64,000 nucleotides of DNA from Candidatus Omnitrophota bacterium (GTDB lineage: Bacteria > Omnitrophota > Gorgyraeia > Gygaellales > Profunditerraquicolaceae). Location of the stretch: NCBI GenBank assembly GCA_026387315.1, contig JAPLLY010000015.1, positions 22,825 through 86,824 of the forward strand, in the 5' to 3' direction. Below are positions 2-9,350 of this stretch, one piece after another. A program made the translations under genes and the position numbers. A model generated the notes under the pieces. The model did not search any database and was not told the DNA's origin. It worked only from the letters and a program-made list of their open reading frames with translations. Positions within the stretch are counted from its first letter, which is position 1. Each line of letters begins with the position of its first letter.

Positions 2-1039
2 TTTCTTCTGCATCTGGAGAATCTGGATAGCCATATCTTACATATTTATTTATTGGTTGCCCCGGATCTTTTGGGAGTAAAAAGTTTTGTTCCTTTAATT
101 GAAACACATAATACGGTTGTGCGCAGGGCGTTACGCATGAAAAAGGAATGTAATGATGTTTGTGATATTCTGGTTGGGCGCCACGTGCATCCGATCTCCT
201 GTATTGTCGGCGGGTTTACCAAGCTCCCGCGGGAAAAAGATTTGCTCCGTATGCTCAACATTTTAATTGGCCTGCGTCCGGATATGGAAGCGACTTTAGA
301 GTTAGCCAAGGCCCTTAAATTTCCACAGTTTAGCCGTGAAACTGAATATGTGAGCCTGGTTAATGATAGCAGTGAATATCCGATGCTTTCAGGAGACTTA
401 GGCTCAACTGATGGATTGCGAATGGCTAAAAAAGACTACCGTAAACTTACCAACGAATTTGTAGTTAGCCATTCTAGCGCTAAACACACCAAGGCTACTC
501 GGCAATCTTATGCGGTTGGGGCGCTGGCGCGTTTTAATCTTAACCAGCATAAACTTCATCCCAAGGCTAAAGAAGCAGCTAAGGCTTTGGGGATGAAACC
601 AATAGTAACTAACCCATACTTAAATACTGCTGCCCAGCTGATTGAATGTGTGCATTCGCTGGAGGATGCTATTGAGATCTTGGAAAGGCTTAAAGATAAA
701 GGTGTGGATTATTCCCAGGAGATTGTGGTGGGCTTAAATGAACGGGGTACTATTCCAGTTAAGGCGGGTTGCGGCATTGGGGCAGTTGAAGTTCCCAGAG
801 GAATTCTATTCCATGAATATGAAATTGATAATCAAGGTAAGATTGTCAACGCTAATTGCGTTATTCCTACCGGGCAGAATTTGAATAATATCGAACATGA
901 TATGGCCTCATTAGTTCCTCAAATACTTGATAAGAGCCAAGAAGAGATTACTCTCCTGCTGGAGATGCTGGTACGCGCTTATGACCCGTGTATCTCCTGC
1001 TCCGCGCATTTTTTGAATGTCAAATTTGTTGGCCGGTAA
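2..1039 (+). CDS. [NiFe]-hydrogenase large subunit, group 3b (sulfhydrogenase alpha-like); 5' end outside window
   Basis: Frame open from base 2 (…SHILHIYLLVAPD); GRHVHP, EVPRG, and C-terminal L2 motif RAYDPCISCSAH plus a 9-aa cleavable tail. Confidence 0.93.
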   Translation, partial: FLLHLENLDSHILHIYLLVAPDLLGVKSFVPLIETHNTVVRRALRMKKECNDVCDILVGRHVHPISCIVGGFTKLPREKDLLRMLNILIGLRPDMEATLELAKALKFPQFSRETEYVSLVNDSSEYPMLSGDLGSTDGLRMAKKDYRKLTNEFVVSHSSAKHTKATRQSYAVGALARFNLNQHKLHPKAKEAAKALGMKPIVTNPYLNTAAQLIECVHSLEDAIEILERLKDKGVDYSQEIVVGLNERGTIPVKAGCGIGAVEVPRGILFHEYEIDNQGKIVNANCVIPTGQNLNNIEHDMASLVPQILDKSQEEITLLLEMLVRAYDPCISCSAHFLNVKFVGR

Positions 1040-1598
1040 TACTGGCTCAGTAACCAATCTTTTAACTCCCCAAGAATTTTCTCACACACTGATTATCACT
1101 GTAGGTAATTGTTTTCGCGCTGATGATGGAGTGGGGCCATATATCGCCTCTGGTCTAAAACCGAGCGTTAAGCTTTCGGTGATTGACGCCGGATCTACTC
1201 CGGGAAATATCATTGATCAGGCGATAAAGTTATTTGCGCAGCAGGAGGCCTTACTTGAGAGGCCGGTACGCGCCTCTGCGCGGCACCCGGCCTTATCTGA
1301 GAGGCCGGTACGCGCCTCTGCGCAGAGGATTATCTTTATTGATGCGGCGGATTTTGGGGGAGCGCCCGGAGAATTGCGCCTCATTGATGCCGAACATATT
1401 CCCGAGTCAACTTTAAGCACGCACAGTATGCCATTGCCGGTGATTAGCCGTATTTTGTATGAAGATACTCAGGCCGAGATTTATTTTATCGGTATTCAGC
1501 CTAAAAGCGTAGAACATAAAGATGGCCTTTCTAAAGAGGTAAGTTCTACTGCCGACGCGCTGATTAAGCATATTAATCAGGAGTTTAAGGATGCATGA
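1017..1598 (+). CDS. Hydrogenase maturation endopeptidase (HycI/HybD family) with an internal 14-aa duplication
   Basis: GNCFRADDGVG, IDAADFG, STHSMP, IGIQP motifs; overlaps the large-subunit stop. Confidence 0.9.
   Translation: MSNLLAGNTGSVTNLLTPQEFSHTLIITVGNCFRADDGVGPYIASGLKPSVKLSVIDAGSTPGNIIDQAIKLFAQQEALLERPVRASARHPALSERPVRASAQRIIFIDAADFGGAPGELRLIDAEHIPESTLSTHSMPLPVISRILYEDTQAEIYFIGIQPKSVEHKDGLSKEVSSTADALIKHINQEFKDA
1247..1323. repeat. 42-bp-period tandem duplication inside the protease CDS
   Basis: ggccttacttgagaggccggtacgcgcctctgcgc (1247) and ggccttatctgagaggccggtacgcgcctctgcgc (1289). Confidence 0.9.
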
Positions 1599-1836
1599 AA
1601 TTCATTTTCTGGAGGATTTATTTAAAGATATCCTACATCATCTTAGCCAGCATAATGCCAAAAATGTAACGCAGGTGTTTTTGGAATTAGGCGAGTTTAC
1701 TGAGATTAATGAGGAGTGCTTAAGGTTTTTCTTTAAAGAAAAATCTCAAGGCTCAGCATTAGAGAATGCTTTATTCAGTATAAAACATATTCCGCAACAG
1801 CGCGTTTTGCGCCTGGTTTCATTTGATTATGATTAA
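1591..1836 (+). CDS. hypA: HypA-like nickel metallochaperone lacking the zinc-finger subdomain
   Basis: N-terminal MHE motif, LELGEFTEINEECLRFFF…GSALENA, C-terminal LRLVSFD strand; both CxxC pairs absent. Confidence 0.8.
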   Translation: MHEIHFLEDLFKDILHHLSQHNAKNVTQVFLELGEFTEINEECLRFFFKEKSQGSALENALFSIKHIPQQRVLRLVSFDYD

Positions 1837-1862
1837 ATTGAAAATTTTCTCTAATGGAAACA

Positions 1863-1908
1863 AGGGGACGGTTCTGTTTTTTATATATAAAAAACAGAAC
1901 CGTCCCCT
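1863..1908. repeat. Family A palindrome (GGGGACGGTTCT…AGAACCGTCCCC)
   Basis: Perfect inverted repeat; at least 10 related copies in the window. Confidence 0.9.
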
Positions 1909-1928
1909 AGATTCTAATTAATATTTGT

Positions 1929-3236
1929 ATGTGTTATGCAATTCCCGGAAAAATAGAGGCGATTAATAATAAGATGGTGGTTGTAGACTACTTCGGCGAG
2001 AAGAAGAAAGCCTATAATGAACTAGATGGTTTGTCTGTCGGTGATTATATCTACGCCCAGGGTGGTTATGCTATTGCGAAAATTCCCGAAGATGAAGCCA
2101 AAAGCATTCTGGCTGTTTGGAAGGAGACTTTTTTTGAGCTTCAGGAAGTTGACCTAAAGCTTTCCCGCCTGGACCTTAATCAGAAATCTGTATCCGGCGA
2201 ATTCTTGAGAATATTGGATAAGGCAGCCGAAGGCAAGAAACTTTCGCCGGAAGAACTCCTGATTTTGATTAAGGAAAAAAATAAACCCGCCCTGGAGCTT
2301 CTTTTCAAAACGGCAAATTTCTTGCGTCAGAAACACCATAAGAATTCTTGCTGCGTGCATGGGATTATTGAAATTTCCAATTACTGCCGCTGTAATTGTG
2401 ATTATTGCGGTATCGCTAAGGGTAACCAAAATATTACGCGTTATCGCTTAACTTGCGGCCAGATACTTGAAGCTGCCCGGCAAGCAATACAGGAGCATGG
2501 TTTTAAGGCGCTGGTGTTGCAATCCGGTGAAGATAGTGGATATAGTATAGAGGAGCTTGCCGAGATTATCCGTAAGATAAAAGTTAATTGGCCGGCTCTA
2601 ATTTTTATTAGCTTCGGAGAAGTGGGGCTGGATAATTTAAAGATTCTTTATGATGCCGGCGCGCGGGGATTGCTTTTGCGATTTGAAACATCTAACCCCA
2701 AGCTTTATCAACAGGTCACCGCGGGTAAAGATCTGGCTAGCCGCATTGCGCATTTAAAAAAAGCTTATGAGTTGGGCTATATGATTATTACCGGAGGTTT
2801 GATTGGCTTGCCGCAACAAAGCCCAGAAGATCTTTTAAATGACATACTTTTAACTAAAGAGTTGCATGCCGAGATGTTTAGTTTTGGCCCATTTATTAGG
2901 CATCCGCAAACCCCGCTGGCTAAATATCCATCGCCCGAAGTAGAAACTGTGCTTAAGGTTATTGCTATTTCGCGCATCATTGATGCGGCGAATGCTAAAA
3001 TTCTAGTTACTACTGCCTTGGAGACACTTAATCCTGATGCTAGGAGAGAGGCGCTGCTTAGCGGAGCGAATTCCGTGATGCTTAATGTAACTCCGCTTGA
3101 ATACCGGTCCTTTTATAACATTTATCCTGCGCGCGCTCATGAAAAAGAGAGCATCGCAGTTCAGATTAAAGATACTATCGGGCTTCTAATGTCTCTAGGA
3201 CGCTCACCTACTGATTTAAGTGTGTTATCCCCGTGA
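1929..3236 (+). CDS. HypC-HydE fusion: N-terminal HypC chaperone domain plus HydE-like radical SAM domain
   Basis: aa 1-65 MCYAIPGKI…VGDYIYAQGGYAIAKIPEDEA (HypC); then CRCNCDYC, LQSGED, LRFETSN, GPFIRHPQTPL, TTALETL, GANSVMLNVTP, YRSFYNIYP (HydE). Confidence 0.88.
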   Translation: MCYAIPGKIEAINNKMVVVDYFGEKKKAYNELDGLSVGDYIYAQGGYAIAKIPEDEAKSILAVWKETFFELQEVDLKLSRLDLNQKSVSGEFLRILDKAAEGKKLSPEELLILIKEKNKPALELLFKTANFLRQKHHKNSCCVHGIIEISNYCRCNCDYCGIAKGNQNITRYRLTCGQILEAARQAIQEHGFKALVLQSGEDSGYSIEELAEIIRKIKVNWPALIFISFGEVGLDNLKILYDAGARGLLLRFETSNPKLYQQVTAGKDLASRIAHLKKAYELGYMIITGGLIGLPQQSPEDLLNDILLTKELHAEMFSFGPFIRHPQTPLAKYPSPEVETVLKVIAISRIIDAANAKILVTTALETLNPDARREALLSGANSVMLNVTPLEYRSFYNIYPARAHEKESIAVQIKDTIGLLMSLGRSPTDLSVLSP

Positions 3237-3277
3237 AAACGGGGATCCAGATTTCCGCTTTCGCGGGAATGACACAC
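3220..3277. repeat. REP-like palindrome (GTCATTCCCGCG-type) overlapping the hypC-hydE stop
   Basis: gtgtgttatccccgtgaaaacggggatc…cgggaatgacacac; related to 49208-49334. Confidence 0.75.
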
Positions 3278-3316
3278 GATTAATTTTGACAGTTATGAGT
3301 AGAAATAAAAAATAAT

Positions 3317-3949
3317 ATGAAAACGAACAAACTTTGTATTATGCGGCTTTCTAAGTATAAGAGCGCGCTTTATCGCCTTAAATCACTGGGTTTTGTGCGG
3401 ATTTTTTCGGATAATTTAGCGGATGCCGTAGAGGTAACTTCGTCTCAGGTGCGTAAGGATTTTTCTATTTTTGATATATCGGGAAATAAACGCGGCGGCT
3501 ATAAGATTGATGAACTGATTGAAAAGATTAATACTATTCTTGGTAAAGATGAATTGCAAAAAGTGGTGATTGTTGGTTTAGGAAAGCTGGGATCCGCTCT
3601 TACGCATTATACTGGTTTTGAGAAAGAGGGGATAAAGGTTGTCGCTGCTTTTGATATAGACGCGTTAAAATTTAAACCCAAAGAGAAAACCCCGGTTTTC
3701 CCCTTAGCCGGCCTGCCGGAGTTTGTGCGTAAGAATAATATTAAAATTGGAATTATTACGGTCCCGGCTGCGGCCGCCCAGCCAGTAGTTGATATTATGC
3801 TTTCGGCAGGAATTAAAGGGGTATTAAATTTTGCCCCAATACAACTGCGGGGAAATGATGATTGCCTGATAAACAATGTGAATCTTGAGGTAGAGCTGGA
3901 AAACCTTATTTATTTCGTTAATGCCTTAATTAAGGCAAAAGGAAAATAA
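3317..3949 (+). CDS. rex: Redox-sensing transcriptional repressor Rex
   Basis: RLSKY, QVRKDFS…G.RGGY winged helix, VGLGKLG Rossmann fold, LNFAP. Confidence 0.95.
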   Translation: MKTNKLCIMRLSKYKSALYRLKSLGFVRIFSDNLADAVEVTSSQVRKDFSIFDISGNKRGGYKIDELIEKINTILGKDELQKVVIVGLGKLGSALTHYTGFEKEGIKVVAAFDIDALKFKPKEKTPVFPLAGLPEFVRKNNIKIGIITVPAAAAQPVVDIMLSAGIKGVLNFAPIQLRGNDDCLINNVNLEVELENLIYFVNALIKAKGK

Positions 3950-3956
3950 GCAGTAA

Positions 3957-5345
3957 ATGAAGCAGATTAATGAAGAGAGAATAAATAACTTATTATTGTC
4001 CACTGCCGATAGCGATAGCCGTAAAATTGACAGGATTATTAATAAAAGCAAATCCTTAAAAAGGCTTACGCTGGAAGAATCAGCCATCCTGCTGGCAGTT
4101 CAGGATGCCGGCTCTCTTGAAAAAATATTTGCCGCGGCTAGTTTTGTTAAAGATGCAATTTACGGCAGGCGAGTGGTATTATTTGCCCCGCTTTATATCA
4201 GCAATTTCTGCGTAAATAACTGCCTTTATTGCGCGTTTAAATCCGATAACTTGGCAATTAAGCGTAAAGCCTTAAGCGCAGCTGAAATTAAATCGCAAAC
4301 TGAATGGCTCTTAGGCCGTGGACATAAAAGAATACTGATGGTTTGCGGGGAGGAAGCGCCTGGTGGGGAATCTAATGTAGATTATTATGTCCAAGCAGTG
4401 AAAGCTATTTATGCTGCGGAAGTGGGTAAGAATAAGATTAAAAGGGTTAATGTTAATTGCGCGCCGCTGAGTATTGATGATTTTAAAAAGCTTAAATCAA
4501 GCGGTATAGGGACTTACCAGATTTTTCAGGAAACATATCATCAGAAAACTTATCTGCGTATGCATCCTAAAGGGCCAAAAAGTGATCCTGATAATAGGAT
4601 TGATGCGGTTGATCGGGCATTTAAAGCCGGGATAGATGATATAGGGATTGGCGCGCTTTATGGTTTATTTGACTGGCGTTTTGAGACATTAGGATTGCTT
4701 TCCCATATTGAGCATATGGAGGAGAAATTTAAAGTCGGGCCGCATACTATTTCTGTGCCGCGTATTGAGCCGGCAGAGGGCGCGGAGCTGTCCCTGAGGC
4801 CTCCCCATAAAATTTCTGATGATGAATTTAAAAAGGTGGTGGCGATTTTAAGGCTTTCTGTGCCCTATACCGGGATCATTATGACTACCCGTGAGAATGC
4901 TTTGATGCGCGATGCCTTGATTAGCCTGGGGGTTTCCCAGATTAGCGCTGAATCTAATACCTCTCCCGGAGGGTATTCTGCCAGCCGTGCCGAGCAGGCA
5001 GGCGGTCAGTTTTCGCTTGGTGACCAGCGCAGCCTGGATGAGATCGTGGGGACTTTGATTGCCCATGATTATATCCCCAGTTTTTGCGCTGCCTGTTATC
5101 GCATGGAAAGAACCGGCGAAGCCTTTATGCAATTAGCTAAACCCGGAATGATCAAAGGTAAATGTAGTATGAATGCTTTAATTACTCTGCAAGAATATCT
5201 CGATGATTTTGCATCAGTTAAAGTTAAGCAGGCCGGGTACAAAATGATTGAGCGTTATTTTAACAAACTGGATAATGTTGATCAGGATATGCTAAAGTTC
5301 TTCTTTAGCCATGTAGATTCCGGAATAAGGGATGAGTATGTTTAA
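3957..5345 (+). CDS. hydG: [FeFe]-type radical SAM maturase HydG
   Basis: FAPLYISNFCVNNCLYC, FQETYH, GPHTISVPR (dangler-Fe His), C-terminal CX2CX22C (CAAC…C) auxiliary cluster motif absent from ThiH. Confidence 0.92.
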   Translation: MKQINEERINNLLLSTADSDSRKIDRIINKSKSLKRLTLEESAILLAVQDAGSLEKIFAAASFVKDAIYGRRVVLFAPLYISNFCVNNCLYCAFKSDNLAIKRKALSAAEIKSQTEWLLGRGHKRILMVCGEEAPGGESNVDYYVQAVKAIYAAEVGKNKIKRVNVNCAPLSIDDFKKLKSSGIGTYQIFQETYHQKTYLRMHPKGPKSDPDNRIDAVDRAFKAGIDDIGIGALYGLFDWRFETLGLLSHIEHMEEKFKVGPHTISVPRIEPAEGAELSLRPPHKISDDEFKKVVAILRLSVPYTGIIMTTRENALMRDALISLGVSQISAESNTSPGGYSASRAEQAGGQFSLGDQRSLDEIVGTLIAHDYIPSFCAACYRMERTGEAFMQLAKPGMIKGKCSMNALITLQEYLDDFASVKVKQAGYKMIERYFNKLDNVDQDMLKFFFSHVDSGIRDEYV

Positions 5346-5353
5346 GATAAAAC

Positions 5354-5382
5354 TTGACAGATATGCTAATTGATAATAATAT
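5354..5382 (+). promoter_or_regulatory. Putative sigma70 promoter for nfnAB-gdhA
   Basis: TTGACA-17-TAATAT. Confidence 0.5.
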
Positions 5383-5405
5383 ACCCCAGATTTGGTTCAA
5401 CGCTG

Positions 5406-5446
5406 GGACAAAGACGTCCGAACAGTTGTTCGGGCGTCTTTTTTTT
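5406..5446 (+). terminator. Leader intrinsic terminator overlapped by an ANTAR-like hexaloop hairpin
   Basis: GGAC-AAAGAC-GTCC hairpin overlaps the 5' arm of aaagacgtccgaac/gttcgggcgtcttt plus a T-tract. Confidence 0.7.
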
Positions 5447-5482
5447 ATTTTTGCATAAAATTTAGGCAAAATTAGATATGAA

Positions 5483-5556
5483 CCCCGCACCTTCTTTGTA
5501 TTTAGATATTAGAAGGCGTAGGGTTAAAAATTAACTAATAAGAAGAAGGTGCGGGG
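5483..5556. mobile_element. Family B MITE-like element (13-bp TIR CCCCGCACCTTCT, TGAA duplication)
   Basis: TIRs at 5483 and 5544-5556, TGAA on both sides; second copy at 33020-33092. Confidence 0.8.
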
Positions 5557-6380
5557 TGAAAATACTCAACAAACAGATTATTAATGATGTGGCAGGGGTA
5601 AAGATTACGCAATTGGATATTCTTTCTCCGGATATCGCCGCGAAGGCCCAAGCCGGACAGTTTGTGATGTTAATGGCTAGCGAAAAGGGGGAGCGCATCC
5701 CCTTGACCTTAGTGAATACGGATAAAATAAAAGGTACTCTGAGCTTGATTTTTCAGGAGGCAGGTTTTACCACTCGGAGTTTAGGTGGATTAAATCCCGG
5801 AGATTCACTTTATTCTTTAGTCGGGCCTTTAGGGCATCCTACCCAGATTAAGAAATATGGAAAAATAATTTTGGTTGGCGGAGGAGTGGGGATTGCCGAG
5901 ATTCTGCCGGTTGCCCGCGCCTTAAAGCAGGCAGGTAATCAGATTACTACTATTCTGGGTTCTCGGAATAAAGACCTGCTCATTTTGGAAGCTGAACTTA
6001 AAAGCGCATCTGATCAAATTTATATTATGACTGATGATGGTTCTTACGGAAGGAAAGGCTTTACCACTGACATGTTAAAGGAACTTTTGAGTAAAGGTAA
6101 ATATGATTTGATTTATTCTGTGGGCCCTATTCCGATGATGAAGAGAGCGGCTTTAGCTAGCAGTGAATATAAGATTAAAACTTTAGTTTCGCTTAATGCG
6201 CTGATGGTGGATGCCACCGGAATGTGCGGTTGCTGCCGGGTGACTGTTTTTGGCCAGGTAAAATTTAGTTGTGTTGATGGGCCGGATTTTGATGGCCATG
6301 GCGTTGATTGGGAAGAACTCCAAAAGAGAAATAAGGTGTATAGCATTCAGGAGAAACACATTTGTAATCTGAAGATATAG
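5556..6380 (+). CDS. NfnA/SudB-like FAD/NAD-binding 2Fe-2S subunit
   Basis: GQFVML…GERIPLT, GPLG, GGGVG, TDDGSYG, MVDATGMCGCCRV…CVDGP. Confidence 0.9.
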   Translation: MKILNKQIINDVAGVKITQLDILSPDIAAKAQAGQFVMLMASEKGERIPLTLVNTDKIKGTLSLIFQEAGFTTRSLGGLNPGDSLYSLVGPLGHPTQIKKYGKIILVGGGVGIAEILPVARALKQAGNQITTILGSRNKDLLILEAELKSASDQIYIMTDDGSYGRKGFTTDMLKELLSKGKYDLIYSVGPIPMMKRAALASSEYKIKTLVSLNALMVDATGMCGCCRVTVFGQVKFSCVDGPDFDGHGVDWEELQKRNKVYSIQEKHICNLKI

Positions 6381-6383
6381 AAT

Positions 6384-6517
6384 CGTCATTCAGACTGTGT
6401 CGCAATGTCATTGCGAGGAGCCGTAGGCGGCGAAGCAATCTCAAAACCGAGATTGCTTCGCCCCTGCGGGGCTCGCAATGACGCACGTTTTGTTATTGCG
6501 ACACAGTCTGAATGACG
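6384..6517. repeat. Nested palindromic element (perfect 23-bp outer IR around a REP-like doublet)
   Basis: cgtcattcagactgtgtcgcaat / attgcgacacagtctgaatgacg enclosing gtcattgcgag…gaagcaatct/agattgcttc…ctcgcaatgac. Confidence 0.85.
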
Positions 6518-6530
6518 GAAATTTTAAATT

Positions 6531-7952
6531 ATGAAAAAAGAACCGGTAAAAGTTAGAGAAGTACCTGCGGTAACCAGAACGGGGAATTTTCAGGAGGTAG
6601 TCCTGGGGTACTCTGAAGAAGAGGCTTATGTAGAAGCCTCCCGCTGTCTGCAGTGTAAGAACCCGGTTTGTATCAGCGGTTGTCCGGTAGGCATTGATAT
6701 CAAGAAGTTTATTTATCAGATCACGCGAAAGGATTATAATCTGGCGTATTTTACGATTAGAGAAAAAAATAATTTTCCTTCGATCTGCGGAAGAGTCTGC
6801 CCGGCGGAATACCAATGCCGTAAAACCTGTATACTGACTAAGAAAGACGCGCCTTTTGCTTCCGAAAAAGCGATCAATATTCATTTTTTAGAACGTTTTG
6901 CCGGGGATTATGGCAAGAATAACAATTTGGATGTTAAGGAAGAAAAAGGCCAAAAGTTTTCTAAATTTAAAGTGGCGGTAGTGGGTTCTGGCCCGGCTGG
7001 TTTATGCTGCGCCGGAGAATTAGCGCGCCAGGGAATCCAAGTTGATATTTTTGAAAGCCTGCATAAAACCGGCGGGGTTTTAAGATATGGCATCCCTCCT
7101 TTTAGGCTGCCTTGGGATGTTTTGGATTTTGAGATAAATTATCTAAAAAAATTAGGGGTTAATTTTATTACTAATTTTCTTGCAGGCAAAGCTAAAACCA
7201 TTAAAGAATTATTCACCCAAGGGTATTCTAATGTATTTTTGGGGCTGGGCGCGGGGGTGCCATCTTTCTTGGGAATTAATGGCGAAAATCTTTGTAATAT
7301 TTATTCAGTAAATGAATTCTTGACTAGGGTCAATTTAATGTCTGCTTATAAATTCCCCGAGTTTCATACTCCGGTTAATATTGGAAGAAACGTTTTGATT
7401 GTTGGTGGAGGCAATACGGCTATGGATTCTGCCAGAGTTGCTTTGAGACTGCAGAAGTTAAATGGTTTGCCGCTTAACACTACAATTATTTATCGGCGCA
7501 CGGAAATTGAAATGCCGGCAAGACGCTTGGAACTGGAGCATGCCCGGGAAGAAGGAGTAAAGTTTGAATTTTTGGTGCAGCCAAAAGAGTTTATTGGAGA
7601 TGGCCGGGGGTTTGTTAGGAAGTTAATTTGTCTTAAGTCTAAATTAAAAGAACCGGACAGCTCAGGCAGGAGGAGGCCGGTGATTATAGAAGGAAGTGAA
7701 TTTCAACTTGATTGTGATTTATGCGTGATTGCCGTGGGGTTAAAAGCAAATCAAATTTTAATTAACGCCACCCCGGAATTAAAAACAGATAAGTATTCAG
7801 ATGTCATTGTTGACGCTGAAACTATGGAGAGTTCGATTAAAGGGGTTTTTGCCGGTGGGGATATTGTGGGTGGAGAAGGCACGGTTATTGAAGCGATGGG
7901 GATGGCCAAAAAGGCAGCCCAGTCAATAATCGGCGAGCTTTCTAAAAAATAA
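6531..7952 (+). CDS. NfnB/SudA-like (GltD-family) NADPH-dependent oxidoreductase
   Basis: EASRCLQC…CISGCP, CGRVCP, GSGPAG, GGGNTAMD, FAGGD; paired with the NfnA-like gene. Confidence 0.9.
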   Translation: MKKEPVKVREVPAVTRTGNFQEVVLGYSEEEAYVEASRCLQCKNPVCISGCPVGIDIKKFIYQITRKDYNLAYFTIREKNNFPSICGRVCPAEYQCRKTCILTKKDAPFASEKAINIHFLERFAGDYGKNNNLDVKEEKGQKFSKFKVAVVGSGPAGLCCAGELARQGIQVDIFESLHKTGGVLRYGIPPFRLPWDVLDFEINYLKKLGVNFITNFLAGKAKTIKELFTQGYSNVFLGLGAGVPSFLGINGENLCNIYSVNEFLTRVNLMSAYKFPEFHTPVNIGRNVLIVGGGNTAMDSARVALRLQKLNGLPLNTTIIYRRTEIEMPARRLELEHAREEGVKFEFLVQPKEFIGDGRGFVRKLICLKSKLKEPDSSGRRRPVIIEGSEFQLDCDLCVIAVGLKANQILINATPELKTDKYSDVIVDAETMESSIKGVFAGGDIVGGEGTVIEAMGMAKKAAQSIIGELSKK

Positions 7953-7997
7953 CACCCCGCGCTTATAAGGTCTTGCGCGGGTGTGCCCTTATGGGCA
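7953..7997. repeat. Family D palindrome (CACCCCGCGC…GCGCGGGTG plus small hairpin)
   Basis: Related copies at 28949, 37568, 43840. Confidence 0.75.
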
Positions 7998-8012
7998 AGG
8001 AGGAGAAGAAAA

Positions 8013-9350
8013 ATGGTAAAGAAAGTCGAAGAGTTTATGGATCTGGTAGTACAGAAGAACCCGGGGGAGGTGGAATTTCATCAGGCAGTAAGAGAGGTTG
8101 TGGAATCAGTAATGCCTTTTATTGAAAAAAATCCTAAATATCAGAAAGCTAAGATATTGGAAAAAATGATTGAACCGGAAAGAACAATAATATTTCGTGT
8201 TCCTTGGCTTGATGATCAAGGAGAAGTTCAAATTAACCGTGGTTACCGTATTGAAATGAGCAGTGCCATCGGGCCGTATAAAGGCGGGTTGCGCCTTCAT
8301 CCCAGTGTGAACTTGGGTATATTGAAATTTTTGGCTTTTGAGCAGGTTTTTAAGAATGCGCTTACTACTTTGCCTATGGGGGGCGGAAAAGGCGGCTCGG
8401 ATTTTGATCCTAAAGGGAAGTCGGATAATGAAGTAATGAAGTTTTGCCAAAGTTTTATGACTGAGCTTTCCAGGCATATTGGCCAGAATACCGATGTTCC
8501 AGCCGGGGATATCGGTGTAGGTGGCCGTGAAATAGGTTATATGTTTGGGCAGTATAAAAGGTTGCGCAATGAATTCACCGGTGTCTTGACCGGTAAAGGT
8601 CTTAATTGGGGCGGGAGCTTGATCCGGCCGGAAGCTACGGGTTATGGTTGCGTGTATTTTGTAGAAGAAATGCTTAAGCTGCGCGGAGATTCTTTAAAAG
8701 GAAAAGTTTGCGCGGTTTCCGGTTCAGGTAATGTTGCTCAATACACCGTGGAGAAGCTTCTGCAGCTGGGGGCTAAAGTAGTTACGCTCTCTGACTCTGA
8801 CGGGTATATTTATGATAAAGACGGTATTGACACTAAAGAGTTAAATTGCGTTTTAAATTTGAAAAATGTTAAGCGCGGCAGAATTAAAGAATGTGCCAAG
8901 GAATTTAACTGTAAGTATTTTGAAAAACAGAGGCCTTGGGGGATAAAATGCGATGTGGCATTTCCTTCCGCTACTCAGAATGAGATAGATGAAAATGATG
9001 CTAAGACCTTAGTGAAAAATGGCTGTATTGCTATTGGTGAAGGCGCAAATATGCCTACTACACCGCAAGGCGTTGAGGTATTTCAGAAGGCAAAAATTCT
9101 TTATGCGCCTGGTAAAGCCTCCAATGCCGGCGGGGTGGCTACCTCCGGATTAGAGATGTCTCAGAATAGCATGCGTTTATCCTGGTCGCGCCAGGAAGTG
9201 GATAAGAAGTTGCATGAGATTATGATTGCTATTCATGAGAGTTGCGTTAAATATGGCAAGGAAGATAAATATATAAATTATGTTAACGGAGCCAATATCG
9301 CTGGATTTGTGAAAGTTGCTGATGCCATGCTCGATCAGGGGTTGGTGTAA
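8013..9350 (+). CDS. gdhA: NADP-specific glutamate dehydrogenase
   Basis: GPYKGGLR, GGGKGG, DVPAGD, RPEATGYG; AGGAGG RBS favours the ATG at 8013. Confidence 0.96.
   Translation: MVKKVEEFMDLVVQKNPGEVEFHQAVREVVESVMPFIEKNPKYQKAKILEKMIEPERTIIFRVPWLDDQGEVQINRGYRIEMSSAIGPYKGGLRLHPSVNLGILKFLAFEQVFKNALTTLPMGGGKGGSDFDPKGKSDNEVMKFCQSFMTELSRHIGQNTDVPAGDIGVGGREIGYMFGQYKRLRNEFTGVLTGKGLNWGGSLIRPEATGYGCVYFVEEMLKLRGDSLKGKVCAVSGSGNVAQYTVEKLLQLGAKVVTLSDSDGYIYDKDGIDTKELNCVLNLKNVKRGRIKECAKEFNCKYFEKQRPWGIKCDVAFPSATQNEIDENDAKTLVKNGCIAIGEGANMPTTPQGVEVFQKAKILYAPGKASNAGGVATSGLEMSQNSMRLSWSRQEVDKKLHEIMIAIHESCVKYGKEDKYINYVNGANIAGFVKVADAMLDQGLV

What the first reader, a model, noticed from the sequence alone, without database searches (positions are those of the whole stretch)
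1929..3236. In-frame HypC-HydE fusion protein with a His-to-Gln change in HypC
Seen: one uninterrupted 435-aa ORF. Residues 1-65 follow the HypC pattern and keep Cys2 (MCYAIPG), but the conserved VLVHxG position reads IYAQGG. The remainder has CxxxCxxC, GPFIRHPQTPL and the YxxY motif of HydE, with no C-terminal auxiliary-cluster cysteines. Established: HypC Cys2 ligates the Fe(CN)2CO unit and the His is important in HypC-HypD function. Inference: the fusion physically couples the radical SAM barrel to the delivery chaperone, and losing the His fits loss of the HypD partnership.
Basis: partly seen in the sequence, partly recalled or inferred. Interest (0 to 1): 0.9.

Follow-up and report, generated by a model that had tools for sequence, protein, structure and literature searches.

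The report
HypC–HydE-like fusion maturing [NiFe] hydrogenases
One conserved gene joins the iron-carrying chaperone of nickel-iron hydrogenases to a radical enzyme of the kind that builds iron-iron hydrogenases, and the genomes that carry it lack the usual assembly genes, which points to an undescribed way of building the nickel-iron active site.

Summary
Window 1929-3236 (+) is one 435-aa ORF with a HypC domain (residues 1-64, Cys2 kept, the family His replaced by Gln44), a conserved linker and a HydE-like radical SAM barrel. It is not an assembly artefact: all 120 best database clusters carry both domains, and contigs from an independent study bridge the junction.

The gene sits in the order [NiFe] hydrogenase (beta-gamma-small-large) - HycI protease - short HypA - fusion - Rex - HydG. 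I examined 31 fusion genomes: 15 of 151 sampled from the phylum, plus 16 under other deposited phylum names, three of them single-contig chromosomes.
- HypD: 0 of 31.
- HydG: 31 of 31.
- Neither [FeFe] HydA nor HydF: 19 of 31.

In the phylum sample, every standalone HypC lies in a HypD-bearing genome (one exception, 72% complete) and every fused HypC in a HypD-less one. HypC-HydE-HydG triple fusions exist. A second, divergent fusion clade lies with HydG inside [NiFe] operons. The radical SAM domain forms its own clade, with HydE-invariant Arg/Thr/Arg replaced by His/Phe/Gly.

Best reading (about 0.65): HydG plus this fusion replace HypC/D/E/F in making and delivering the Fe-CO/CN unit of [NiFe] hydrogenases. 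This rests on comparative genomics only; the chemistry is inferred. One preprint mentions the fusion in passing.

The parts
2..1039 (+). 3' part of the [NiFe] hydrogenase large subunit gene. The whole gene is 441 aa and starts 286 bases before the window, at G000:C7:22538. The beta (Fer4_22), gamma (FAD/NAD) and small subunit genes lie upstream.
   Evidence: Pfam NiFeSe_Hases. The RICGICACGH and DPCISCSAH motifs and a C-terminal extension are present.
1017..1598 (+). HycI-type hydrogenase maturation endopeptidase (193 aa), with an in-frame repeat insert at 1256-1320.
   Evidence: PF01750 and TIGR00072; tandem repeat.
1591..1836 (+). Short HypA (81 aa): the N-terminal nickel domain only, beginning MHE, without zinc-finger cysteines.
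   Evidence: PF01155 profile positions 1-70 of 112; sequence. HypA is full-length (115 aa) in the HypD-bearing genome G091.
1858..1917 (.). Palindromic dispersed repeat in the hypA-fusion spacer.
   Evidence: blastn-short gave 206 HSP lines over many contigs of G000. Contig breaks and 4-5 fold depth at this place.
1929..2120 (+). HypC domain of the fusion (residues 1-64). Cys2 codon at 1932-1934; Gln44 codon at 2058-2060.
   Evidence: PF01455; alignments to solved HypC chains. Cys2 in 131 of 131 and Gln44 in 130 of 131 aligned fusions.
2121..2213 (+). Conserved linker (residues 65-95, WKETFFELQEVDLKLSRL...).
   Evidence: Column conservation in 131 fusions.
2214..3236 (+). HydE-like radical SAM barrel (residues 96-435 plus stop). 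CxxxCxxC at C153/C157/C160 (2385-2408). Clade-specific residues H144, F226, G247; M316 kept.
3317..3949 (+). Rex redox-sensing repressor, lying between the fusion and hydG.
   Evidence: NF003996, 237 bits. Found beside the fusion in 42 of 80 group-A loci.
3957..5345 (+). HydG (462 aa), with its radical SAM motif and the C-terminal CxxC...C auxiliary-cluster motif.
   Evidence: TIGR03955, 482.4 bits against a 312.15 cut-off; sequence.

Best explanation
The ORF encodes a dedicated [NiFe]-hydrogenase maturase. Together with the neighbouring standard HydG it takes the place of the HypC/HypD/HypE/HypF machinery.

Proposed course of events:
1. HydG makes an iron complex carrying CO and CN from tyrosine. 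This is established for HydG in [FeFe] maturation (abstract of PMC8855341) and is inferred here.
2. The HydE-like radical SAM barrel works on that complex (inferred).
3. The Fe-CO/CN fragment is taken up by Cys2 of the enzyme's own N-terminal HypC domain (inferred).
4. The HypC domain delivers it to the apo large subunits, as HypC alone is thought to do (PMC11565642, passages read). In this genome the clients would be the group-3 enzyme next door and a group-4 enzyme on contig C34 (inferred).
5. The short HypA then inserts nickel and the HycI proteases cut the C-terminus (inferred from the gene set).

The family His is not needed because there is no HypD interface.

Shown: the anatomy, the conservation, the gene order, the complementary distribution and the further fusions. 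Inferred: every chemical step, including how a 2 CO / 1 CN HydG product would become the 1 CO / 2 CN iron site.
For: 1. Complementary distribution in 151 genomes sampled from the phylum.
- PF01455 hits 52 genomes, once each. 37 hits lie in short frames (36 HypD-bearing genomes plus G146) and 15 in frames of 372-465 aa, which are the fusions.
- HypD is in 36 of 151 genomes and in 0 of the 15 fusion genomes.
- HypF at E<=1e-50 is in 37 of 151 and in 0 of the 15.
- Strong [NiFe] large-subunit hits (E<1e-12) occur in 53 genomes: the 15 fusion genomes, the 36 HypD genomes, G146 (72% complete, with HypF and HypC) and G140 (77% complete).

2. Second set of 16 fusion genomes, with deposited names that include Margulisiibacteriota, Saganbacteria, WOR-1, Elusimicrobia, WOR-3, Atribacterota, Spirochaetota, Brevinematales and Clostridia, plus three single-contig chromosomes.
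- HypD 0 of 16 and HydG 16 of 16.
- In five of them (the three chromosomes and two others), no HypE or HypF scores over the cut-off, and the only HypC hit is the fused one.

3. Not an [FeFe] function.
- HydA and HydF are both missing in 9 of the 15 and in 10 of the 16, including all three chromosomes.
- Genomes that do have HydA and HydF also keep a separate plain HydE.

4. Gene order.
- The order large subunit - HycI - HypA - fusion - (Rex) - HydG recurs.
- Of the 80 group-A loci, 63 hold a large subunit and 50 hold HydG. HydG follows within 2.6 kb in 35 of the 65 loci that have 2 kb of downstream sequence.
- None of the 80 holds HypD, HypE, HypF or a standalone HypC.
- In the HypD-bearing genome G091 the same position holds hypF-hypC-hypD-hypE.

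5. Fusions as evidence of partnership.
- HypC-HydE-HydG triple fusions: P0125 (906 aa) and P0133 (881 aa), one in each of the two fusion clades.
- A 922-aa frame in the chromosome-level genome G151.

6. Independent replicate in clade B (37-46% identical).
- HydG follows within 2.6 kb in 33 of the 51 metagenome loci that have 2 kb of downstream sequence.
- The pair often lies between the diaphorase genes and the small and large subunit genes.
- None of the 80 loci holds HypD/E/F, HydA or HydF.

7. Own genome. G000 has one HypC hit (this ORF), no HypD, no HypE, HypF or HypB over the cut-off, and two [NiFe] enzymes with intact CxxC pairs.

8. The barrel is specialised.
- The fusion clade has SH-aLRT 100 and stands apart from the 11 plain HydEs of the phylum.
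- His replaces Arg at 144 (30 of 30 against Arg in 42 of 43). Phe-type replaces Thr at 226 (Thr in 43 of 43 others). Gly/Ala replaces Arg at 247 (30 of 30 against Arg in 39 of 43). M316 is kept.
Against: - No experiment and no structure or complex model supports any step.
- The chemistry does not close. HydG's known product carries 2 CO and 1 CN (PMC8855341, abstract), whereas the [NiFe] iron carries 1 CO and 2 CN.
- HydGs next to fusions do not form a clade of their own; they interleave with HydGs next to plain HydE (11 label changes for 24 rows). Nothing in HydG marks a new job.
- In the window's own genome a HydA gene exists on the 5958-base contig C33. That contig is colinear, at 76% nucleotide identity, with a congener's [FeFe] locus, and no HydF was found. 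An [FeFe] role, or an unassembled hydGEF set, cannot be excluded for G000 itself (93% complete, 5.2% contamination).
- Most genomes are MAGs. Absence was tested with profile HMMs at family cut-offs, so very divergent HypD/E/F analogues would be missed.
- The HypC domain is below the NCBIfam TIGR00074 cut-off (41.7 against 48).
- Weak PF00374 hits (E 1e-4 to 1e-9) in 18 other genomes were not analysed.
- Related genomes are not independent, so the clean 2x2 pattern overstates the number of independent events.
Confidence: 0.65

Rival explanations
1. The fusion takes part in [NiFe] maturation but does less than replace HypCDEF. For example, HydG and the barrel might supply only the CO ligand (an anaerobic counterpart of HypX), or the HypC domain might act only as a folding and holding chaperone, while cyanide or the scaffold comes from unrecognised proteins.
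For: The same synteny and co-occurrence as for the main reading. The ligand count of HydG's product does not match the [NiFe] iron site (PMC8855341, abstract). HydG is not specialised.
Against: No candidate for the missing functions recurs in the 160 loci examined, although only known families were looked for. HydG yields both CO and CN. The genomes are small (1.3-1.8 Mb chromosomes) and have no HypE or HypF over the cut-off.
Confidence: 0.17
2. It is a HydE for [FeFe]-hydrogenase H-cluster synthesis, with the HypC-like domain acting as a carrier, possibly standing in for HydF.
For: The best family and structure matches are HydE. HydG is adjacent. G000 has a HydA gene and no HydF. In 11 of 80 loci a HydA lies 5-6 kb downstream.
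Against: 19 of 31 fusion genomes have neither HydA nor HydF, and these include three single-contig chromosomes. Genomes with HydA and HydF keep a separate plain HydE. HydE-invariant residues are replaced. The fusion sits behind the [NiFe] structural genes, HycI and HypA.
Confidence: 0.06
3. The pattern is an artefact: a misassembled or chimeric ORF, Hyp genes missing because bins are incomplete, or decaying hydrogenase loci.
For: G000 is a 62-contig bin, 93% complete with 5.2% contamination. Most comparison genomes are MAGs.
Against: The junction is bridged in contigs of another study. There are more than 120 independent clusters. Three chromosome-level genomes show the same gene set. The metal-binding cysteines of both large subunits are intact. 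The fusion is strongly conserved, with Cys2 in 131 of 131.
Confidence: 0.02
4. The system builds some other organometallic or sulfur cofactor that is merely encoded near hydrogenase genes.
For: The barrel's changed pocket allows for another substrate. A neighbouring clade carries an N-terminal Se/S-carrier domain instead.
Against: The N-terminal domain is a HypC, whose only known clients are [NiFe] large subunits. The fusion was linked with at least three large-subunit types. The distribution is exactly complementary to HypC and HypD.
Confidence: 0.05

Closest known systems
HypC/HybG/HupF chaperones working with HypD, HypE and HypF ([NiFe] Fe(CN)2CO assembly)
   Same: An OB-fold domain matching PF01455, an N-terminal Met-Cys, a gene position behind the large subunit, protease and hypA, and a presumed delivery of the iron fragment to the large subunit.
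   Different: The domain is fused to a radical SAM enzyme and the family His is lost (Gln44). No HypD, HypE or HypF occurs in the same genomes. Its Pfam scores are lower (40-60 bits against 76-100 for standalone HypCs of the phylum).
HydE, the radical SAM maturase of the [FeFe] H-cluster (T. maritima HydE structures)
   Same: The closest profile and structure match, the CxxxCxxC motif, most barrel motifs, the Met aligned with T. maritima Met224 (which holds an Fe(CO)2CN species; PMC8855341, section 18) and the partnership with HydG.
   Different: It forms a separate clade, scores just under the TIGR03956 cut-off, and has HydE-invariant Arg/Thr/Arg replaced by His/Phe/Gly. It lacks the auxiliary-cluster cysteines and occurs without HydF or HydA in 19 of 31 genomes.
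Maturase gene fusions such as HydEF of green algae (recalled, from no call) and the HydE-HydG fusion P0150
   Same: Successive maturation steps joined in one polypeptide.
   Different: This fusion joins parts of two different hydrogenase maturation systems.
The 'unusual HydE-HypC fusion protein' noted in a [NiFe] operon of a Legionellales symbiont (bioRxiv 10.64898/2026.04.11.717937; passages read)
   Same: Apparently the same kind of protein in the same kind of operon.
   Different: It is mentioned in one clause as part of a 'full maturation machinery'. HydG and HypD do not occur in that text, and no function or distribution is discussed.

Membership tests
HypC/HupF (PF01455, TIGR00074) | Profile match over the curated cut-off | tested here: inconclusive
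   Pfam 53.2 bits against 28.5: met. NCBIfam TIGR00074 41.7 bits against 48: not met. Solved HypC 2z1c matches at E 1.4e-9.
HypC/HupF (PF01455, TIGR00074) | N-terminal Met-Cys, with Cys2 as the iron ligand | tested here: met
   The sequence begins MCYAIPG. Cys2 is present in 131 of 131 aligned fusions and in all 15 rows of A1, except P0134, which lacks the N-terminus.
HypC/HupF (PF01455, TIGR00074) | Conserved His (E. coli His51, T. kodakarensis His45) | tested here: not met
   Gln44. Gln in 130 of 131 fusions. 0 of 13 diverse fusions have His, against 20 of 20 standalone HypCs.
HypC/HupF (PF01455, TIGR00074) | Partner HypD (and HypE, HypF) in the genome | tested here: not met
   HypD in 0 of 31 fusion genomes. 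HypF in 0 of 15 and 0 of 5. HypE in 0 of 5, and none in G000.
HypC/HupF (PF01455, TIGR00074) | Binds the Fe(CN)2CO fragment and the apo large subunit | not testable with these tools
HydE (TIGR03956) | Equivalog score over the cut-off | tested here: not met
   247.9 bits against 254.6, a narrow miss.
HydE (TIGR03956) | Radical SAM CxxxCxxC motif and HydE-type barrel | tested here: met
   C153/C157/C160 are invariant. T. maritima HydE scores 207.6 bits over residues 101-427.
HydE (TIGR03956) | Groups with bona fide HydE in a tree | tested here: not met
   It falls in a separate clade of 30 rows (SH-aLRT 100), nested among HydE-like sequences but apart from the 11 plain HydEs of the phylum. The tree used the quick method, without bootstraps.
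HydE (TIGR03956) | Residues invariant in HydE (Arg, Thr, Arg at query positions 144, 226, 247) | tested here: not met
   His, Phe and Gly here. The fusion clade shows 30 of 30, 26 of 30 (Phe) and 30 of 30 (Gly/Ala). Other sequences show Arg in 42 of 43, Thr in 43 of 43 and Arg in 39 of 43.
HydE (TIGR03956) | Co-occurs with HydF and HydA | tested here: not met
   Both are missing in 19 of 31 fusion genomes.
HydE (TIGR03956) | Works with HydG | tested here: met
   By co-occurrence only: HydG in 31 of 31 genomes (30 over the cut-off, and G108 cut by a contig end). Triple fusions also exist.
PylB / BioB / HmdB | Best profile or structure match | tested here: not met
   PylB 142.7, BioB 95.3 and HmdB 75.6 bits against HydE 247.9. 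In the PDB, PylB scores 77.9 and BioB 43.2 against HydE 207.6. No PylB or BioB sequences were available for a tree.

The most novel reading that the evidence does not exclude
In several anaerobic phyla, [NiFe] hydrogenases take their iron-carbonyl-cyanide unit from tyrosine through HydG, not from carbamoyl phosphate through HypEF.

In this reading, the amino-terminal cysteine of the fused HypC domain (free amine plus thiol once Met1 is removed) takes the place of the free cysteine that chelates HydG's product. The HydE-like barrel has lost two arginines that are invariant in HydE, and here it would act on a protein-bound iron-cysteine complex.

The resulting site might even carry a ligand set other than Fe(CN)2CO. 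If so, the two hydrogenase maturation systems share a working intermediate and perhaps a common origin.
Probability: 0.3. Interest if true: 0.95.

Novelty: new variant of a known kind. Interest (0 to 1): 0.88.

Why it matters
HypC, HypD, HypE and HypF are treated as universal for [NiFe] hydrogenases. The source of the CO ligand under anoxic conditions is also still open (recalled).

A natural system with [NiFe] enzymes, HydG and a HypC-HydE-like protein, but without HypD/E/F, would have four consequences:
- It would show a second route to the [NiFe] cofactor.
- It would link the [NiFe] and [FeFe] assembly lines mechanistically.
- It would offer a compact gene set (fusion plus HydG, or a single triple-fusion gene) for heterologous production.
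- It would change how hydrogen metabolism is called in genomes of Omnitrophota, Margulisiibacteriota, Elusimicrobia and others, where the absence of hyp genes could be read as a non-functional hydrogenase.

It also gives HydE research a natural variant with a changed pocket.

Tried and rejected
- Structure and complex prediction. I prepared alignment A2 of the fusion and alignment A3 of 24 large subunits. Structure prediction was off and complex prediction unavailable. There is therefore no model of how the HypC domain sits on the barrel or on the large subunit.
- Earlier findings of this scan.

Expression: no RNA holder was listed. One metatranscriptome run laid only two short contigs, both at repeats, at 1143-1321 and 1858-1894.

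A specialised '[NiFe]-type' HydG was looked for and not found. HydGs next to fusions interleave with those next to plain HydE (53 of 92 extracted HydGs used, sampled at random per group).

A tree against PylB and BioB was not possible because no such sequences were on hand. Profile and PDB scores were used instead.

The structural role of the three changed barrel residues could not be checked. The HydE/complex-B structure paper is not held, and PMC8162317 has no passage on them. Supplements were not consulted.

The only mention of such a fusion is one clause in bioRxiv 10.64898/2026.04.11.717937 (passages read). These searches found no paper proposing HydG-dependent [NiFe] maturation; subscription journals are not covered. 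What I saw of the other papers:
- PMC9431212: abstract only.
- PMC11216029 and PMC7325909: passages only; neither treats the fusion.

Misassembly and bin incompleteness were considered and rejected (see rival explanations).

Rows dropped before counts:
- One search aligned 131 of the 273 stored proteins. They were chosen by an N-terminal MC-x-[AGS]-[IVL]-P pattern, a CxxxCxxC motif and a length over 300 aa. This excludes clade B (MCLTIP).
- One search counts tblastn hits of 45 bits or more to queries from G000, G091 and G095, so divergent genes can be missed.
Full report
**What is there**

Window 1929-3236 (+) is a single open frame of 435 codons.
- Pfam places a HupF/HypC domain on residues 1-64 (53.2 bits against a gathering cut-off of 28.5) and a Radical_SAM domain on 147-304.
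- Among NCBIfam models, HydE (TIGR03956) is far ahead at 247.9 bits, just under its 254.6 cut-off. PylB scores 142.7, BioB 95.3 and HmdB 75.6.
- Among solved structures, T. maritima HydE matches residues 101-427 at 207.6 bits (E 2.9e-60). PylB scores 77.9 and BioB 43.2. T. kodakarensis HypC matches residues 1-67.
- In all four alignments to solved HypC chains the family His stands opposite Gln44.
- The frame begins Met-Cys.

**It is not an artefact**

- All 120 of the 120 best clusters in the 5.8-billion-protein search carry both Pfam domains. They are 432-451 aa long and 61-93% identical.
- Six DNA runs from two studies hold 94% or more of the sampled words of window 1000-5400.
- In runs of the study that is not the probable source, one contig of 2949 bases covers 1888-4836 with one differing letter. 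Another, of 724 bases, covers 1888-2611 with none. Both bridge the domain junction.

**Neighbourhood**

The window starts inside a [NiFe] large-subunit gene. On the contig (L014) the order is as follows:
1. ATP synthase genes
2. A Fer4_22 subunit
3. An FAD/NAD subunit
4. The small subunit
5. The large subunit (441 aa)
6. A HycI protease
7. An 81-aa HypA
8. The fusion
9. Rex
10. HydG
11. NfnAB-like genes and glutamate dehydrogenase

The large subunit has both CxxC pairs and a C-terminal extension. HydG has its radical SAM motif and the C-terminal CxxC...C motif.

The genome (1.80 Mb, 62 contigs, 93% complete, 5.2% contamination) gives these results:
- One HypC hit, which is this ORF.
- No HypD.
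- No HypE, HypF or HypB over the cut-off.
- No HydF and no second HydE.
- A second [NiFe] enzyme of the membrane-bound group-4 kind, with its own HycI, on contig C34.
- A HydA gene on the 5958-base contig C33.

**Distribution within the phylum**

In 151 genomes drawn evenly from the phylum, 15 have the fusion. Thirteen are full-length matches. G057 and G133 have shorter linkers, and their HypC parts were confirmed.

| Feature | Of 151 genomes | Of the 15 fusion genomes |
|---|---|---|
| HypD | 36 | 0 |
| HypF (E<=1e-50) | 37 | 0 |
| HydG over cut-off | 70 | 14, plus G108 cut by a contig end |
| HydF over cut-off | 60 | 5 |
| HydA | 63 | 6 |

- PF01455 hits 52 genomes, exactly once each. 37 hits lie in short frames, scoring 76-100 bits apart from one hit cut by a contig end. 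These are the 36 HypD genomes plus G146. The other 15 lie in frames of 372-465 aa and score 40-60 bits; these are the fusions.
- Strong large-subunit hits occur in 53 genomes: the 15, the 36, G146 (72% complete, with HypF and HypC) and G140 (77% complete).
- Nine fusion genomes, 82-96% complete, have neither HydA nor HydF.
- Within this sample, every genome with a clear [NiFe] large subunit has either the Hyp set or the fusion, never both. The exceptions are the two poorly complete bins.

**Beyond the phylum**

A scan of species-representative genomes returned 80 loci, all covering the fusion from residue 1 or cut only by a contig end. Their record titles name Omnitrophota, Margulisiibacteriota, Saganbacteria, WOR-1, Elusimicrobia, WOR-3, Atribacterota, Spirochaetota, Brevinematales and others (names as deposited).

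Sixteen of these genomes received new handles. Three have records titled 'chromosome' whose single contig equals the genome size. Results for the 16:
- HypD in 0 of 16 and HydG in 16 of 16.
- HydA in 6 and HydF in the same 6. The three chromosomes lack both.
- In the three chromosomes and two Margulisiibacteriota-type genomes, no HypE or HypF reaches the cut-off (best scores 94.5 and 39.8 bits). The only HypC hit is the fused one.

Taken together, of 31 fusion genomes, none has HypD, all have HydG, and 19 have neither HydA nor HydF.

**Gene order elsewhere**

Counts for the 80 group-A loci, by tblastn with this genome's proteins and with reference Hyp and Hyd proteins from G091 and G095:
- A large subunit in 63 of 80, and in 59 of the 75 loci with at least 5 kb of flank.
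- HydG in 50 of 80, and within 2.6 kb downstream in 35 of the 65 loci with 2 kb of downstream sequence.
- HycI in 43, short HypA in 40 and Rex in 42.
- HydA in 11 and HydF in 2.
- HypD, HypE, HypF or a standalone HypC in none.

Further points:
- The fusion follows at least three large-subunit types. They are 56-95%, 26-27% and 21-23% identical to the local one. The last type is about 400 aa long and lies some 8 kb upstream; it was not classified.
- In the HypD-bearing genome G091 the matching place reads large subunit - protease - full-length HypA - HypF - HypC - HypD - HypE.
- Where a HydA lies nearby, the order continues HydA ... HydG - plain HydE - HydF. Those genomes therefore hold both a plain HydE and the fusion.

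**Further fusions and a second clade**

The search of 1.84 billion representatives found 390 proteins at E<=1e-30. About two dozen 50%-identity clusters align from residue 1.
- P0125 (906 aa) and P0133 (881 aa) are HypC-HydE-HydG triple fusions, and their HydG parts keep the C-terminal cluster motif. They belong to two different fusion clades.
- A 922-aa frame in chromosome-level G151 is another triple fusion.
- Clade B begins MCLTIP, is 37-46% identical to the query, and has Thr, Tyr or Ala at the His position.
- I traced clade B in metagenomes, which gave 80 loci. HydG follows within 2.6 kb in 33 of the 51 loci with enough downstream sequence.
- In several of these loci the pair sits between the diaphorase genes and the small and large subunit genes. 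No HypD/E/F, HydA or HydF was seen.

**Conservation**

- In 131 aligned fusions, Met1-Cys2 and the strings DYFGE and GDYxYAQGG are almost invariant. Cys2 is present in 131 of 131 and Gln44 in 130 of 131 (the exception is Tyr). The linker WKETFFELQEVDLxLSRL is also conserved.
- Twenty of 20 standalone HypCs from HypD-bearing genomes of the phylum have GDYVIVHAGFAI with His. None of 13 diverse fusions has His.

**The radical SAM part**

A quick maximum-likelihood tree of 74 barrels (SH-aLRT only, HydG as outgroup) gives these results:
- One clade with support 100 holds all 27 fusions plus three N-terminally short sequences that share their signature.
- Clade A is monophyletic within it, with support 99.
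- The 11 plain HydEs of the phylum lie elsewhere.
- The nearest neighbour, weakly supported at 83, is a group with an N-terminal Se/S-carrier domain.

Positions that are invariant in the other sequences are changed throughout the fusion clade:

| Query position | Fusion clade | Other sequences |
|---|---|---|
| 144 | His, 30 of 30 | Arg, 42 of 43 |
| 226 | Phe, 26 of 30 | Thr, 43 of 43 |
| 247 | Gly or Ala, 30 of 30 | Arg, 39 of 43 |

- By the alignment, and assuming a ten-residue tag in the PDB chain, these are T. maritima Arg54, Thr134 and Arg155. I could not check their structural role.
- Met316 aligns with Met224, which holds an Fe(CO)2CN species in HydE crystals (PMC8855341, section 18). 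It is kept in all 30.
- HydG shows no such split. HydGs beside fusions interleave with HydGs beside plain HydE.

**Reading**

The HypC domain, the gene position, the exact complementarity with HypC/HypD/HypF, the presence of HydG in every case, the absence of any [FeFe] client in most cases and the triple fusions all point the same way. The protein most likely serves [NiFe] hydrogenases and works with HydG in place of HypCDEF.

Known chemistry supplies the frame:
- HydG makes [Fe(II)(CN)(CO)2(cysteinate)]-. HydE attacks the cysteine sulfur of that complex and cleaves the C-S bond (PMC8855341, abstract and section 18).
- In the Hyp pathway the iron fragment is held between Cys2 of HypC and Cys41 of HypD. 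HypC alone is thought to deliver it. The conserved HypC His lines the HypCD ATP cavity (PMC11565642, passages).

I therefore propose that the barrel processes HydG's product and hands an Fe-CO/CN fragment to its own Cys2, which carries it to the large subunits. How 2 CO / 1 CN becomes 1 CO / 2 CN is unknown, as is whether it does at all.

A bolder version is compatible with the loss of two arginines but is untested: the N-terminal cysteine of the HypC domain replaces free cysteine as the chelator.

**Caveats**

- The evidence is comparative only.
- Absence rests on profile searches, and most genomes are MAGs.
- Related genomes are not independent events.
- The window's own genome has a HydA contig without HydF, so a double role there cannot be excluded.

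**Novelty**

Databases already hold the protein under names such as HydE, HypC family chaperone, radical SAM protein or biotin synthase.
[quoted passage not shown] HydG and HypD are absent from its text.
- Ten full-text searches found no proposal of HydG-dependent [NiFe] maturation.
- I rate it a new variant of known kinds, a hybrid of the two maturation systems, of high interest.

Noticed in passing
window 1858-1917: A perfect palindromic repeat of about 46-60 nt lies between hypA and the fusion gene. It is dispersed over the genome: blastn-short gave 206 HSP lines on many contigs. Contigs of public runs break there and depth rises 4-5 fold. It may be a REP-like or terminator-like element.
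   Followed up: partly
window 1017-1598 (insert at 1256-1320): The HycI protease gene carries an in-frame insert made of an imperfect 21-nt tandem repeat (peptide ERPVRASA... twice). The insert splits the profile match in two, and contigs of public runs show loose ends at 1285 and 1325.
   Followed up: partly
window 1591-1836: HypA is only 81 aa: the N-terminal nickel domain starting MHE, without the zinc-finger cysteines. The same short form accompanies the fusion in 40 of 80 loci. A HypD-bearing relative (G091) has a 115-aa HypA. No HypB (TIGR00073) was found in G000.
   Followed up: partly
G000 contig C34 (L170 2400-12256): A second [NiFe] hydrogenase of the membrane-bound group-4 type with Mrp-like antiporter subunits. 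It has intact CxxC pairs and its own HycI, so the single fused HypC would have to serve two enzymes.
   Followed up: partly
G000 contig C33 (L171), 5029-5925: An [FeFe] HydA gene runs off the end of a 5958-base contig. The contig is colinear, at 76% nucleotide identity, with the hydA region of congener G095, which continues into hydG-hydE-hydF. No HydF was found in G000. The cause could be an unassembled remainder or a mis-binned contig.
   Followed up: partly
proteins P0180, P0185, P0196, P0205: HydE-like radical SAM proteins with an N-terminal Se/S-carrier domain (PF11823). They form a tight clade (SH-aLRT 100) next to the HypC-fused clade. This is another carrier domain fused to a HydE-like barrel, of unknown role.
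   Followed up: no
protein P0150 (803 aa): A HydE-HydG fusion without a HypC domain.
   Followed up: no
HypD-bearing genomes of the phylum: Most have a short HypF consisting only of the C-terminal half (profile positions about 380-740, frames of 355-421 aa). Nine genomes have full-length HypF.
   Followed up: no
window 3317-3949: A Rex redox-sensing repressor sits between the fusion and hydG here and in 42 of 80 group-A loci. This suggests NADH/NAD-dependent control of the hydrogenase and maturation genes.
   Followed up: no
window 5556-9350: Downstream lie an NfnA-like FAD/NAD subunit, a GltD/NfnB-like NADPH oxidoreductase and an NADP glutamate dehydrogenase. These are NAD(P)H-linked partners that fit a group-3 NAD(P)-coupled hydrogenase.
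   Followed up: no
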